NCBI RefSeq assembly: GCF_009914755.1
Contig: NC_060930.1
Source of the DNA: the human T2T-CHM13v2.0 reference genome, Homo sapiens
Direction: 5' to 3' (one strand)
DNA length: 64,000 bases
This document shows, in pieces, positions 40,027 to 44,935 of the stretch (its first letter is position 1; every line of letters begins with the position of its first letter). Below the pieces are notes generated by a model. The model was given only the letters and a program-made list of their open reading frames with translations. It did no database searches and was not told the DNA's origin. Both the position numbers and the translations under genes were made by a program.

Positions 40027-40760
40027 TTCATTATTGGGCAGCTAACATTTAGAGGTCTAGATCAGGCATTTATCAGCCCACAGTTATGGGGTAGATGGGT
40101 CAGATAGTTTGGCAATCCCAGTTCACCCTTAGTTGGAAGCATCTGACTGTCTAACTCATACATCAGTGTTAGTAACTCATAACAATTTAAAGACCTTCTC
40201 TTTTCAAACATATGCTCATTTTAACCCAGATATAACAGCATAAAGAGTCTAGCAGTAAAAAGTCTAGGCTGTGAACAGTTATCACTAACAAGATGGACAC
40301 ATTTGGAAAGCCACCGAAACTCTTTGGCTCTCAGTTCCCTATCCATAAAGTGGAAGGGTTACAGTACATGAAGTCAAAATTTCTTCTAGCTAAAGTATGT
40401 TTGGTATCTATGACTCTATAAAGAAAGCCTAACTATAAGGCATCAAAGGCAAGTGAGTAAGGTTCTCCCAACCCACCCAAGTGCAAGGCTAAGGATACAT
40501 GCCCCATGGGATGACCCAGGCTGGGAGGCACGAAGGAGCAGAAGATCAATAGACTTGAATTCAAACTTTACCTAGATGATAAATCAACAGAGACAACTTA
40601 TTGATGAAGGTCAGGCAACAGAATGCTCTAGAGTGGGGAAACCTTACATAAGAGACCTAAAGTTCAAGCCTCAGCTTAGCCATTGACTAGTAGAATGGCC
40701 TTGGACAGGCCACTTAACTCTTCTGAGCCACAGTTTCCCCAATGGGTGTATTACTATCTG
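40027..40760 (+). repeat. Inverted local duplication, left arm (inferred donor; unique DNA plus MIR remnants)
   Basis: Reverse complement of 43909-44641; about 27 substitutions and 1 indel by manual alignment. Confidence 0.97.
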
Positions 40761-40790
40761 CTCCACATATAGACAACTCAGTATTTGTAT

Positions 40791-41462
40791 TGTTGGAGCT
40801 CAGAAACTGATACCTCAAAATATGGTCCTTTGATATACTGAACTAAAGAAGCCTCAAGGTCTCTCTGATTTTCCCCCACCTCCCAACCTCACTGTCTCAC
40901 CCAAAGCATAAGATGAAGCTAAAGTTCCTTTATCTGCCTAAGATCCAGACCCACCAAGAATAATTGTTTTTTTCTTCCCCTCCCTGTAAAACCAAGAATA
41001 TAACCACACCTAAACAGATCGTGTCACAAGATAATGTCACAGTATTTTGGGAGGCCAGGATGGGAGGATCACTTTAGCCCAGGAGTTTGAGACCAGCCTG
41101 GGCAACATAGTGAGACCCTGTCTCTACAAAAATAAAATAAAATAAAATAAAAAGATAATGTCTATCTGTCAGATCATTCCAGTTCCAAAGATAACTATTT
41201 ACATATTGATCTCTCTTCCCAGATACATTTATTCTCCCTAGTAATTCCCTCAACAGAACTCCTCTTCTCTGTGCCCCATCTTGCCACATAATATGTTTTG
41301 CCAGGATGGGACATGAGCTTCTGAACCCCAATGGGGAATGGATAATCACTTTCCTTGTGTACAAGTTAATAAAATCTGTATGCCTTTTCTCCAGTTAATC
41401 TGCCTTTTGTGAGTTGATTTTCCAGTGAACCTTCCAAGGAGAAGTTCCCCTTGGCCCATACA
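40791..41462 (+). mobile_element. ERV1 solo LTR (MER39-like) containing a FLAM fragment (about 41038-41152)
   Basis: tgttggagctcagaaactgatacc...ttggcccataca; TSD gtat. Confidence 0.78.
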
Positions 41463-41479
41463 GTATCAATATAAGAAAA

Positions 41480-43110
41480 TGTGCACACAGCAAAGAAAAC
41501 AATCAACAGAGTGAAGATACAACCTGTTGAAGGTCGAGCACGGTGGCTCATGCCTGTAATCCCAGCACTTTGGGAGGCCAAGGTGAGAGGATTGCTTGAG
41601 CCCAGGAGTTGAAGACGAGCCTGGGCAACATAGCAAGACCCTCATCTCAAAAAAATAAATAAGTAAAAGAAAAAGAGAAGATACAACCTGTTGAATGGGA
41701 GAAAATATCAGCAAACTATTTATCCAAGAAGGGACTAATATTCAGAATAACAAGGAACTCACTCAAACAACTTAACAGTAACAAATCAAATAATCTCATT
41801 AAAAATGAGCAAAGGACATGAATAGACATTCTCAAAAGACATACAAATGACCAATAGATATATTAAAAAACACACAACATCACTAACTTGCATTGGGGAA
41901 ATGCAAATCAAAACCACAATGAAAATGAAGGAAAAAACTGCAATGAAATATCATCGCATGCCAGTTAGAATGGCTATTATTTAAAAAACAAAAGTAACAG
42001 ATGCTGGTGAGGAGGTGGAGAAAAGGGAACACATATACTGTTGGTGGAAATGTAAATTAGTATAGCCACTGTGGAAAATAGTATGAAGATTTCTTTAAAA
42101 ACTAGAAATAGAACTACCATATGCTCCCACATTCCCACTATTAGGTACTTATCCAAAGGAAAAGAAATCAGTATATATAAGGAATACCTGTGCTTGCATG
42201 TTTATTGTAGCACTATCCACAATAGCAAAGATATGGAATCAACCTAAGTGTCCATCAATGGACAAATAGATGAAGAAAATGTGGTATATGTACACAATGG
42301 AATATCATTTGGCCATAAAAAAGAATGAAATCATGTCATTTGCAGCAATATGGATGGAACCGAAGGTAATTATGTTAAGTGAAATAAGCCAGGCACAGAA
42401 AGACAAATATCACATGTTCTCACTCACATGTGGAAGCTAAAAAAGTTGATCTCGTGGAGATAGAGAGTAGAATGATAGATACCAGTGGCTGGGAAGGGTA
42501 TGTGTGTTGGGAGGATGAAGAAAGATTGGTCAATGGATACAAATATACAAACATACAGTTAGATAGGAGGAAAAGTTCTCTTTTTTTTCTTTTTTTTTGA
42601 GACCAAGGTCTCACTCTGTTACCCAGGCTGAAGTGCAGTTGCATAATCACGGCTCACTGCAGCCTCGACTGCTCAGTCTCAAGCTATCCTCCTGCCTCAG
42701 CCTCCCAGGTAACTGGGACTACAAGCATGTGCCACCATGCACAGCTAAGTTTTTAAAAATTTTTTGTTGAGACAAGGTCCCACTGTGTTGAGGCTGGTCT
42801 TGATCTCCTGGGCTCAAGTGATTCTCCCACCTCGGTCTCCCAAAGTGCTGAGACTACAGGCGTGATCAATCATGCCTGGCCTAGAAAGAATGAGTCTTAT
42901 ATTCAATAGCAGAGTAGAGTGACTATAGTTAATAACATTGCATTATATATTTCAAAATAGCTGTAAGAGAGGACTTGAAATGTTCCCACCACATAGAAAT
43001 GATAAATACTGGAAGTGATGGAAACCTTAAGTACCCTGACTTGATCCTCACACATTCTATGCATGTAACAAAATATCATATGTAATCCATAAATATGTAT
43101 AAATATTGTA
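41480..43110 (+). mobile_element. L1MA 3' fragment with nested FLAM (41532-41670, +) and AluJ (42577-42881, -)
   Basis: ORF2 end and 3'UTR; TSD aaaatgtgcaca; FLAM TSD gaagatacaacctgttgaa. Confidence 0.87.
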
Positions 43111-43883
43111 TATCAAGAAAAAAGAAAAAATGTGCACAAACATACTCAATAAATTATAAAACAGCCAGAGCTCAGAAGTTCTATGCGAATAGGCATTTGT
43201 AATTTAGAAGGAGATTTCCTTCTCAAAATAGAGCAAAAGCGGAAAGAAAAAGGCTAGAAAAAGACTTTTGAGAAAACAGCTTCCTACTTTCCCATTCTTT
43301 AGATATAGACACTGAGTGTGAATTTAAGAAACTTCTCTAGTCTTTCCAAGAGAAAGAGGTACCGCCTTTCCATGGAAATGTCTGAATAATAAAAAGGTTG
43401 CTAAACCTGAATCTTTGTCACACTTACTCAAAGCCCCAGACCATGCAATGACATTCAGATAAGCAAAAGAATCTCTGAGTCTCTCTTTTATACCAGGAGA
43501 CAAGACACAAGTTACAGGGTAGGCAAAGAGGCCAGGCCTCAGCAGCTGAATTAGCCAATGTATGTGAGTTATTATGAAAAAAGAGGCACAGCAACGAGGA
43601 AAGAGATTTGGCCACAGTCAAATTTCCGTTATTTGTGGGGTAGAAAGGGGAGGGGGGAGGAACCAGGTTGGCTAGGAAGAAAAGTGTTAAGAAACAAAGC
43701 TATTTTCACCTAAGGGCAAATGTATGAACTCAGTGCTATATAATGTGAGAAGAAAACTAGCTCTGAGCAGTCTAAGCTTTGTGGTGTATGCAAAAGTGAT
43801 CAGGCCCAGGAAGACTCGAGTAGAGGACTTCAGTGACATATCCATACCACCCTTACCCTGGGGCACTTGTTTAAAGTCACTTT

Positions 43884-44935
43884 GGACCATGGTTCCTGCC
43901 TGTAATCCCAGACAGTAATACGCCCATTGGGGAAACTGTGGCTCAGAAGAGTTAAGTGGCCTGTCCAAAGCCATCCTACTAGTCAATGGCTAAGCTGAGG
44001 CTTGAACTTTAGGTCCCTTATGTAAGGTTTCCCCACTCTAGAACATTCTATTGCTTGACTTTCATCAATAAGTTGTCTCTGTTGATTTATCATCTAGGTA
44101 AAGTTTGAATTCAAGTCTATTGATCTTCTGCTCCTTCATGCCTCCCAGCCTGGGTCATCACATGGGGCATGTATTCTTAGCCTTGCACTTGGGTGGGTTG
44201 GGAGAACCTTATCACTTGCCTTTGATGCCTTATAGCTAGGCTTTCTTTATAGAGTCATAGATACCAAACATACTTTAGCTAGAAGAAATTTTGACCTCAT
44301 GTACTCTAACCCTGCCACTTTATGGATAGGGAACTGAGAGCCAAAGAGTTTCGGTGATTTTCCAAATGTGTCCATCTTGTTAGTGACAACTGTTCACAGC
44401 CTAGACTTTTTACTGCTAGACTCTTTATGCTGTTATATCTGGGTTAAAATGAGCATATGTTTGAAAAGAGAAGGTCTTTAAATTGTTATGAGTTACTAAC
44501 ACTGATGTATGAGTTAGACAGTCAGATGCTTCTAACTAAGGGTGAATTGCGATTGCCAAACTATCTGACCCATCTACCTCATAACTGTGGGCTGATAAAC
44601 GTCTGATCTAGACCTCTAAATGTTAACTGCCCAATAACGAAAATCCTAGTATTTTCAGAGGCCAAGGTAGAGAATCACTCTAGAACCCAGGAGTTTGAGA
44701 CTGGCCTGGGCAACATGATGAAAACTTGTCTCCAAAAAACATACAAAAAATTAGCCAGGCATGGTAAAGCACACCTGTGGTCCCAGCTACTCAGGAGGCT
44801 GAGACAGGAGGATCGCTTGAGCCCGGGAGGTGGAGGTTGCAGTGAGCTGAGACTTCAGTGAGCCAAGACTGCAACACTGCACTCCAGCCCGAGTGACACA
44901 GCAAAACCCTGCCTCTAAAAAAATAAGAAAAATAA
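43884..44935 (+). mobile_element. AluJ interrupted by the 733-bp inverted copy
   Basis: 5' piece tgcctgtaatcccag (to 43911), remainder from aatcctag (44642); TSD aaa(g/a)tcactttg at both outer ends. Confidence 0.85.
43909..44641 (-). repeat. Inverted local duplication, right arm (inferred inserted copy)
   Basis: About 96% identical reverse complement of 40027-40760. Confidence 0.97.

What the first reader, a model, noticed from the sequence alone, without database searches (positions are those of the whole stretch)
40027..44649. 733-bp inverted templated insertion pasted inside an Alu, 3.1 kb from its donor
Seen: 43909-44641 is the reverse complement of 40027-40760 (manual count about 27 substitutions plus one 1-bp indel, ~96%). 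The duplicated DNA is not a young transposon. The right copy splits an AluJ: ...tgcctgtAATCCCAG[copy]AATCCTAGtattttcagaggcc..., and the Alu's own TSD aaa(g/a)tcactttg brackets the whole. One junction has CAG microhomology shared by the Alu and the donor end. The Alu octamer aatcc(c/t)ag occurs on both sides. There is no poly-A tail. Inference: the left arm is the donor and the event was a DNA-level template switch (MMBIR/FoSTeS or Pol theta-like break repair), not retrotransposition. It is much younger than the AluJ unless gene conversion has homogenised the arms. Nesting order is LTR > AluJ > copy.
Basis: partly seen in the sequence, partly recalled or inferred. Interest (0 to 1): 0.85.

Follow-up and report, generated by a model that had tools for sequence, protein, structure and literature searches.

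The report
Inverted copy-paste insertion inside an Alu
A 733-base stretch of an IPCEF1 intron was copied backwards into an old Alu element 3.1 kb away, most likely by DNA repair or replication switching templates some 10-20 million years ago; it is a clean example of a known kind of mutation.

Summary
40027-40760 and 43909-44641 are reverse complements with 27 substitutions and one 1-base indel (3.7%). The whole genome holds only these two copies.

The right copy is the insertion. It splits one old Alu without losing a base, and it is flanked by the Alu octamer AATCCCAG/AATCCTAG. One junction shares CAG with the donor, the other is blunt, and there is no poly-A. The Alu has its own 12-base target duplication. 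It sits in an older interspersed repeat whose two halves are adjacent in other genomic copies.

The Alu is about 21% from the window's Alu majority, against about 1.8% per arm. Mismatches are evenly spread, so there is no sign of partial gene conversion.

Best explanation (0.72): a DNA-level templated insertion. A 3' end in the Alu annealed by microhomology to the nearby opposite strand, copied about 730 nt, and returned 5-8 nt behind its departure point. Retrotransposition is unlikely but not excluded.

This is a known class (MMBIR/FoSTeS templated insertion, inverted dispersed duplication). Outgroup genomes, which would be decisive, could not be searched.

The parts
40027..40760 (+). Donor arm (left copy), 734 nt, in unique intronic DNA of IPCEF1. 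It contains an ancient MIR-like repeat core at 40661-40741 (the name is recalled, not given by any search).
   Evidence: Its flanks carry no target duplication and do not resemble the right locus.
40758..40760 (+). CTG at the donor's right end, complementary to the CAG that ends the first Alu octamer. This is the 3-nt junction microhomology.
   Evidence: Read.
40761..43908 (.). 3,148-nt spacer between the arms. It holds older Alu-like pieces and other repeats, and no annotated exon.
   Evidence: hub annotation table.
43744..43884 (+). Left part of an older interspersed repeat (copies elsewhere are 66.9-79% identical across) into which the Alu inserted.
   Evidence: (13 other genomic copies).
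43873..43884 (+). Alu target-site duplication, copy 1 (aaagtcactttg).
43885..43911 (+). 5' piece of the host Alu, ending in the octamer AATCCCAG (43904-43911).
43912..44641 (-). Inserted inverted copy, 730 nt that are unambiguously insert. Bases 43909-43911 (CAG) could belong to either the Alu or the insert.
44642..44649 (+). Second copy of the Alu octamer (AATCCTAG), a 5-8-nt duplication of the target created by the insertion.
44650..44933 (+). 3' piece of the host Alu, including its A-rich tail.
   Evidence: The rejoined Alu is 21.2% from the window Alu majority (17.2% outside CpG).
44934..44945 (+). Alu target-site duplication, copy 2 (aaaatcactttg).
44946..45235 (+). Right part of the older interspersed repeat that hosts the Alu.
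   Evidence: The right flank aligns directly after the left flank in other genomic copies.

Best explanation
This is a DNA-level, copy-and-paste templated insertion made in the germline of an ape ancestor. A growing or broken 3' end lay inside an old Alu and ended in ...AATCCCAG. It left its template and annealed through the three bases CAG to CTG at 40758-40760 on the opposite strand, 3.15 kb away. It was then extended leftwards along that strand for about 730 nt, down to 40027. Finally it rejoined the Alu without microhomology, 5-8 nt behind the point it had left. Equivalently, the break had an 8-nt stagger that was filled in. The result is an inverted second copy flanked by a duplicated Alu octamer, with the donor left intact. 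The sequence cannot tell whether the 3' end came from a stalled or collapsed fork (FoSTeS/MMBIR) or from a two-ended break repaired by synthesis-dependent copying plus end joining.

Shown: polarity (left arm is the donor), junction anatomy, copy number and relative age.
Inferred: the pathway, and the absolute age. The estimate is roughly 10-20 million years. It rests on 3.7% divergence between the arms set against recalled human-orangutan (~3%) and human-macaque (~6%) divergences.

The present-day consequence is also inferred. IPCEF1 pre-mRNA carries two 733-nt complementary stretches able to form a long double-stranded RNA, and the DNA carries an inverted repeat that could occasionally flip the 3.1-kb spacer.
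For: - Exactly two copies exist in the 3.1-Gb genome, 3,148 nt apart and inverted.
- The right copy interrupts one Alu with no loss of Alu bases and duplicates its octamer. That Alu's own 12-nt target duplication and its host repeat are continuous around it. In one search, 12 of 13 other loci hold both flanks, and in 5 of them the two alignments abut within 5 nt.
- There is a 3-nt microhomology at one junction and a blunt join at the other. By my own arithmetic, 3 nt or more is expected at about 5% of random joins.
- There is no poly-A, and no AATAAA in the last 40 nt of the insert.
- There are no terminal inverted repeats: 8 of 20 terminal bases match, and the best local match is 6 nt.
- A trans-acting RNA route would land within 3.2 kb of its source with probability about 2e-6 (arithmetic: 6.4 kb of 3.1 Gb).
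- The arms differ by 3.7%, which rules out an assembly duplicate.
Against: - No outgroup or population data could be consulted, so neither the empty site nor the date has been observed.
- Only one of the two junctions has microhomology, and it is only 3 nt.
- A 5-8-nt target duplication is also what an endonuclease-made staggered cut (L1 ORF2p) produces. TSIP class 1, which is RNA-mediated, is defined partly by a duplication of at least 5 bp (PMC5110952).
- The insert's + strand equals the sense strand of IPCEF1 pre-mRNA, so an RNA template did exist at the locus.
- The published MMB-TI searches cover inserts no longer than read length with templates within 100 bp. This event is much larger and farther from its template.
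- The attempt to show an ancient repeat running across the donor's end was inconclusive: the profile envelope stops at 40761.
Confidence: 0.72

Rival explanations
1. RNA-mediated insertion. A fragment of IPCEF1 intronic pre-mRNA was reverse-transcribed, either by L1 ORF2p at a nick it made in the Alu (target-primed reverse transcription) or as a cDNA patch at a break, and was then sealed using the CAG microhomology at the 5' junction.
For: - The target duplication is 5-8 nt and begins with AA in the orientation in which the insert equals the sense RNA.
- The donor lies in a transcribed intron (hub annotation).
- From recalled knowledge, microhomology at the 5' junction is typical of truncated L1-type insertions.
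- TSIP class 1 and class 2 events of this general kind are described in PMC5110952 (passages).
Against: - There is no poly-A at all; class 1 events carry 10-40 untemplated A.
- There is no AATAAA upstream of the insert's end.
- The implied nick site GATT/A matches only 3 of the 5 positions of TTTT/A.
- The priming junction shows no overlap with the RNA's end.
- A trans insertion landing 3.1 kb from its source is about a 2e-6 coincidence.
- The arm differences show no excess of A-to-G changes in the RNA sense: 1 T>C against 6 C>T on the + strand.
Confidence: 0.1
2. Capture of a free double-stranded DNA fragment by end joining at a staggered break in the Alu. The fragment would be, for example, a by-product of replication or repair of the neighbouring 733 nt, or a linearised small circle.
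For: One junction is blunt and the other has minimal microhomology. The octamer duplication fits a filled-in stagger. Orientation is free under this model.
Against: The donor is intact, so the fragment must itself have been a copy, which adds a step. Nothing explains why a free fragment would land 3.1 kb from its source. A circle-derived fragment would usually be permuted, yet the copy is colinear end to end.
Confidence: 0.12
3. Transposase-type mobilisation, for example by a hAT-like enzyme. From recalled knowledge, that superfamily makes 8-bp target duplications.
For: The flanking duplication is 8 nt.
Against: - There are no terminal inverted repeats: 8 of 20 terminal bases match.
- Only two copies exist genome-wide.
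- The left copy has no flanking duplication.
- The arm consists of unique DNA with an ancient SINE-like core.
- If the CAG belongs to the insert, the duplication is only 5 nt.
Confidence: 0.01
4. Assembly artefact, or two independent members of a rare repeat family.
For: None found.
Against: The arms differ at 27 sites plus an indel, spread evenly, whereas artefactual duplicates would be identical. The junctions sit cleanly within an Alu with a duplicated octamer. The next best genomic match is 50 nt at 84%.
Confidence: 0.01

Closest known systems
MMBIR/FoSTeS templated insertions (MMB-TI; Osia et al. 2021, PMC8421209, passages read)
   Same: The insertion is an inverted copy of a nearby template, with microhomology at a junction and an intact donor. 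Germline examples are shared between people and are thought to have accumulated during human evolution.
   Different: The catalogued events are no longer than read length, with templates within 100 bp. This one is ~730 nt with its template 3.15 kb away. Only one junction has microhomology, and the target carries a 5-8-nt duplication.
Templated sequence insertion polymorphisms, class 1 (L1 ORF2p-mediated; Onozawa & Aplan 2016, PMC5110952, passages read)
   Same: Non-repeat genomic sequence is inserted, with a target duplication of at least 5 bp. Intronic fragments can be donors.
   Different: This event has no poly-A, no polyadenylation signal and a poor TTTT/A site. The donor is local rather than distant. 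The event is old and present in the reference, and its polymorphism status is unknown.
Templated sequence insertion polymorphisms, class 2 (break-repair patches; same paper)
   Same: There is no poly-A, microhomology is seen at a junction, and the features fit repair of a DNA break.
   Different: Class 2 is defined as lacking target duplications and is proposed to use cDNA from distant loci. Here there is a duplication and a cis donor.
Dispersed duplications among human insertion variants (Delage et al. 2020, PMC7640490, passages read)
   Same: The inserted sequence has a low-copy source elsewhere in the genome. In one person's call set, 773 of 13,850 annotated insertions (5%) were of this type, so the class is common.
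   Different: That class is defined by copy number only, without regard to orientation, distance or mechanism. The passages retrieved by the term search held no occurrence of 'inverted'.
Short-range template switches in great-ape genomes (Walker et al. 2021, PMC7954356; only the search listing and the start of the abstract were seen)
   Same: A polymerase transiently switches to a nearby alternative template, producing inverted local copies that have become fixed in ape lineages.
   Different: The abstract describes those events as small-scale, often read as clusters of point changes. This one is a 0.7-kb insertion.

Membership tests
MMBIR/FoSTeS-type templated insertion | The inserted sequence is a copy of a template that remains intact elsewhere. 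| tested here: met
   Both copies are present, there are two copies genome-wide, and they are 96% identical over 733 nt.
MMBIR/FoSTeS-type templated insertion | The template lies nearby and in inverted orientation (signature as stated in PMC8421209). | tested here: met
   Inverted, with 3,148 nt between the arms. This is nearby on the scale of a replication fork or a kilobase, but well beyond the 100-bp limit used by the published search tool.
MMBIR/FoSTeS-type templated insertion | Microhomology at the switch junctions. | tested here: inconclusive
   One junction has 3 nt (CAG) and the other has 0 nt. Three nt is only mildly more than chance (about 5% by my own arithmetic).
MMBIR/FoSTeS-type templated insertion | Dependence on replication or BIR machinery. 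| not testable with these tools
TSIP class 1 / L1 ORF2p-mediated insertion | Target-site duplication of at least 5 bp. | tested here: met
   AATCCCAG / AATCCTAG. The duplication is 8 nt, or 5 nt if the CAG is assigned to the insert.
TSIP class 1 / L1 ORF2p-mediated insertion | An untemplated poly-A of 10-40 nt, with AATAAA 10-20 nt upstream. | tested here: not met
   The insert ends ...caataacgaa, directly followed by the octamer. The donor reads gaag at the same place, so there are zero untemplated A. There is no AATAAA.
TSIP class 1 / L1 ORF2p-mediated insertion | Insertion at a 5'-TTTT/A-3' site. | tested here: not met
   The implied nick is GATT/A in one orientation (3 of 5 positions) and CCAG/C in the other.
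TSIP class 2 (break-repair patch) | No target duplication; microdeletion, microhomology or untemplated bases at the junctions. | tested here: not met
   A duplication is present. There is no deletion of Alu bases and there are no untemplated bases. Microhomology is present at one junction.
DNA transposon (hAT-like) | Terminal inverted repeats and a family of copies. | tested here: not met
   8 of 20 terminal bases match, and only two copies exist genome-wide.
   It is colinear with 18 other window Alus and has a 12-nt target duplication and an A-rich tail. At 21.2% from the window majority it ranks 17th of 19 by divergence, with 2 of 16 CpGs kept, so it is old. Subfamily-diagnostic positions could not be checked without a reference library.

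The most novel reading that the evidence does not exclude
The 5-8-nt duplication marks an enzyme-made staggered cut in the Alu's recombination-prone left-arm core. The cut was then repaired by copying neighbouring DNA in cis. That would be an 'endonuclease-initiated, DNA-templated' class of insertion, lying outside both published TSIP classes. In addition, the resulting 733-nt, 96%-complementary pair would make IPCEF1 pre-mRNA carry one of the longest non-Alu double-stranded RNAs in a human gene, which would be edited by ADAR or sensed as dsRNA in cells that express IPCEF1.
Probability: 0.1. Interest if true: 0.55.

Novelty: new member of a known kind. Interest (0 to 1): 0.3.

Why it matters
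The event is an unusually legible fossil. Because it landed in an Alu, which itself sits in an older repeat, the pre-insertion sequence can be reconstructed to the base. Polarity, junctions and target duplication are therefore unambiguous.

It extends the size and distance range of local inverted templated insertions seen in the human germline. The published MMB-TI searches cover read-length inserts with templates within 100 bp; this insert is ~730 nt with its template 3 kb away. It also shows such an event carrying a transposon-like target duplication without poly-A, a combination that the two-class TSIP scheme does not cover.

The practical lesson is that a short flanking duplication is not by itself proof of retrotransposition or transposition.

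The inverted repeat could also matter today, as a long intronic dsRNA and as a substrate for a small inversion polymorphism. Neither was tested. No function is implied; the most likely status is a neutral, fixed structural change.

Tried and rejected
1. Ancient repeat across the donor's right end. I tried to show an ancient repeat running across this end, which would independently prove that the left arm is original.
   - A 119-nt query across the end found only itself, the right arm (which stops exactly at 40760) and one chr3 copy.
   - Sensitive blastn within the window gave nothing useful.
   - A profile built from 30 MIR-like copies matched 40661-40741 (E 1.1e-11), with an envelope ending at 40761. 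The result is inconclusive.
2. Transposon reading. Rejected: no terminal inverted repeats and no family. A RAG-type signal-end reading was also considered. It was rejected by eye, because the ends do not resemble recombination signal heptamers; this rests on recall and was not tested with a tool.
3. RNA-editing or APOBEC footprint in the arm differences. None is evident: A>G 8, G>A 8, C>T 6, T>C 1 in left-to-right direction on the + strand. Without an outgroup the direction of change is unknown.
4. Partial gene conversion. The longest mismatch-free run is 145 nt (P = 0.064 in 100,000 permutations). Halves hold 14/13 mismatches and thirds 8/9/10. There is no support.
5. Rfam scan of 39000-46000. 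No family reached its gathering score.
6. Literature on this locus. The 15 and 10 papers listed hold no occurrence of IPCEF1. Lower-ranked papers were not seen, so this is not a claim that nothing is in print.
   - The one supplementary file held for the dsRNAscan preprint (11,346 characters) has no IPCEF1. Its full tables were not available and could bear on the dsRNA claim.
7. Earlier findings of this scan.
8. Outgroup primate loci, human pangenome haplotypes and raw reads. No tool here holds them.
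Full report
**Observation**

The repeat finder reports two abutting inverted pairs: 40027-40456 with 44212-44641 (430 nt, 97%) and 40458-40760 with 43909-44211 (303 nt, 96%). They are offset by one base.

A global alignment with 60-nt flanks shows one continuous homology of 733/734 nt. It has 27 substitutions and one 1-base indel, and the match stops abruptly at both ends. 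Of the substitutions, 23 are transitions and 4 are transversions. This gives p = 3.68% and K2P 3.81%, with a Poisson 95% range of 2.3-5.1%.

In the whole window, this is the only pair above 87% among the 25 longest of 107 inverted pairs. The other 23 listed pairs are 76-87% identical and 198-316 nt long, and look like Alu-Alu pairs by eye.

**Copy number**

A search of the window's own 3.1-Gb genome with the left arm found three candidates, and all three were scored:
- the query itself;
- the right arm (96% over 1-734);
- a 50-nt, 84% match on another chromosome.

That short match is the conserved core of an ancient SINE-like family. A follow-up search gave 184 candidates at 70-90% over 50-140 nt. 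A profile built from 30 of these copies matches 40661-40741 (E 1.1e-11) and the corresponding part of the right arm, 43928-44008 (E 1e-11). I recognise this family as MIR from memory; no call names it.

So the arm is ordinary unique intronic DNA with old repeat debris, duplicated once. It is not a family member, and there is no third copy. One caveat stated by the tool: very common words are skipped.

**Polarity and nesting**

The right copy is bracketed by two pieces of one Alu: 43885-43911 and 44650-44933.
- Rejoined with a single octamer, the Alu aligns colinearly with the majority of 18 other Alus in the window. There is no gap or loss at the junction.
- The octamer is present on both sides: AATCCCAG at 43904-43911 and AATCCTAG at 44642-44649.
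- The Alu's own 12-nt target duplication (43873-43884 and 44934-44945, 11 of 12 identical) brackets the whole.

Outside that, the Alu's left flank (from about 43744) matches 13 other genomic loci at 69-79%. In 12 of those 13, the Alu's right flank (44946 to about 45235) also matches, on the same strand and in the same order. In five loci (L030, L033, L037, L038, L039) the two alignments abut within 5 nt. In six they end 18-30 nt apart after projection. One locus has about 335 nt of extra sequence between them, and one lacks the right flank.

The order of events is therefore: old interspersed repeat, then Alu, then the 733-nt copy. The left arm has no flanking duplication. The names 'LTR' and 'AluJ' could not be tested, because no repeat library was available.

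**Relative age**

The rejoined Alu differs from the window's Alu majority at 62 of 293 aligned positions (21.2%; 17.2% outside CpG). It keeps 2 of 16 consensus CpGs and ranks 17th of 19 by divergence; the other Alus range from 9.4% to 27.6%.

The arms differ by 3.7%, which is about 1.8% per arm. Set against recalled, uncomputed genome-wide divergences (human-orangutan about 3%, human-macaque about 6%), the event falls roughly 10-20 million years ago. That is after the split from Old World monkeys.

Gene conversion would make the event look younger than it is, but the mismatches are evenly spread. Halves hold 14/13 and thirds 8/9/10. The longest clean run is 145 nt, with P = 0.064 in 100,000 permutations.

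**Junctions**

- Junction 1. The CAG at 43909-43911 is both the end of the Alu octamer and the complement of donor CTG at 40758-40760. This is a 3-nt microhomology.
- Junction 2. The insert ends ...cgaa where the donor continues with g. The octamer follows directly, with no overlap and no untemplated bases.
- There is no A-run, and no AATAAA in the last 40 nt.
- There are no terminal inverted repeats: 8 of 20 terminal bases match, and the best local match is 6 nt.

**Mechanism**

The anatomy fits a 3' end with + strand sequence ending in ...AATCCCAG. That end paired with CTG on the + strand 3.15 kb to its left and copied that strand down to 40027. It then re-engaged its original partner 5-8 nt behind where it left. 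An equally good description is a staggered two-ended break with fill-in, with one end extended on the nearby template and then joined blunt.

An insertion close to, and inverted relative to, its template with junction microhomology is the stated signature of MMBIR templated insertions (PMC8421209, passages). Germline examples are known there. However, that search covers inserts only up to read length with templates within 100 bp.

The strongest single argument for a DNA-level, cis mechanism is position. A trans-acting RNA route would place the copy within 3.2 kb of its source about twice in a million insertions (arithmetic).

I put 0.72 on this explanation. The replicative and break-repair versions cannot be separated from the sequence. 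From general knowledge, synthesis of ~730 nt argues against Pol theta alone.

**Rivals**

- An L1 ORF2p or cDNA route (0.10). In its favour are the 5-8-nt duplication, which begins with AA in the orientation where the insert equals IPCEF1 sense RNA, and the microhomology at what would be the 5' junction. Against it, the event lacks the poly-A, the polyadenylation signal and the TTTT/A site that define TSIP class 1 (PMC5110952, passages). Because it has a target duplication, it also fails the definition of class 2.
- Capture of a free DNA fragment (0.12). This needs an extra copying step and does not explain the proximity to the donor.
- Transposase action, and assembly artefact. Both are effectively excluded.

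**Context of the break**

The insertion point lies in the left-arm Alu segment that the literature calls the 26-bp Alu core. That segment has been linked to rearrangement breakpoints (PMC1142316, passages citing earlier work). That the window's cctgtaatcccag... belongs to this core is my recollection of the core sequence, not a tool result. The association is weak evidence at most.

**Consequences (inferred)**

IPCEF1 is on the minus strand and both arms are intronic (hub annotation). In the sense of the pre-mRNA the two arms can pair over 719 of 733 nt. The predicted duplex energy is -1354.5 kcal/mol, against -234 to -282 for five shuffled partners. Editing or sensing of this duplex was not tested. 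No Rfam family matches in 39000-46000.

The assembly shows the ancestral orientation of the spacer: the Alu 5' piece still adjoins the right arm.

**Comparison and novelty**

Dispersed duplications are a routine class among human insertion variants: 773 of 13,850 annotated insertions in one call set (PMC7640490, passages). Templated insertions by template switching are well described. This is a new, very clean member of a known kind.

Its mildly unusual features are its size, the 3-kb jump, and a target duplication without poly-A. That combination falls between the two published TSIP classes.

The decisive test is to look for empty sites in outgroup primates. It could not be run with the tools at hand.

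Noticed in passing
window 39529-39810: A 280-nt compound (TA)n/(TG)n microsatellite with many self-complementary arms (TRF periods 2, 8, 16, 24 and 30). It lies 217 nt beyond the point where copying of the donor stopped (40027). Alternating purine-pyrimidine and palindromic tracts are known fork obstacles, so it could be related to the template switch. That link is pure speculation.
   Followed up: partly
window 40789-40899 (may extend further right): An interspersed repeat starts 28 nt to the right of the donor arm. It has at least 286 genomic candidates; the 38 scored non-self matches are 80-90% identical. It was not named and its full extent was not mapped. It is not part of the duplicated segment.
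   Followed up: partly
window 40027-40760 vs 43909-44641: The arm differences are transition-rich, 23:4. From memory a ratio of about 2:1 is usual, so this is perhaps nominally high. The inserted copy keeps 5 CpGs against 2 in the donor: 3 CpG sites decayed in the donor and 1 in the copy. The numbers are too small to interpret without an outgroup.
   Followed up: partly
window 44315-44360 (and the matching part of the left arm, about 40308-40353): A second, weak match to the MIR-like profile lies inside the arm (E 0.0033; reported only for the right copy). It may be a second decayed SINE fragment or it may be chance.
   Followed up: no
window 43744-43884 + 44946-45235: The host repeat of the Alu is about 430 nt when rejoined and starts with TG. 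Other copies are 66.9-79% identical.
   Followed up: partly
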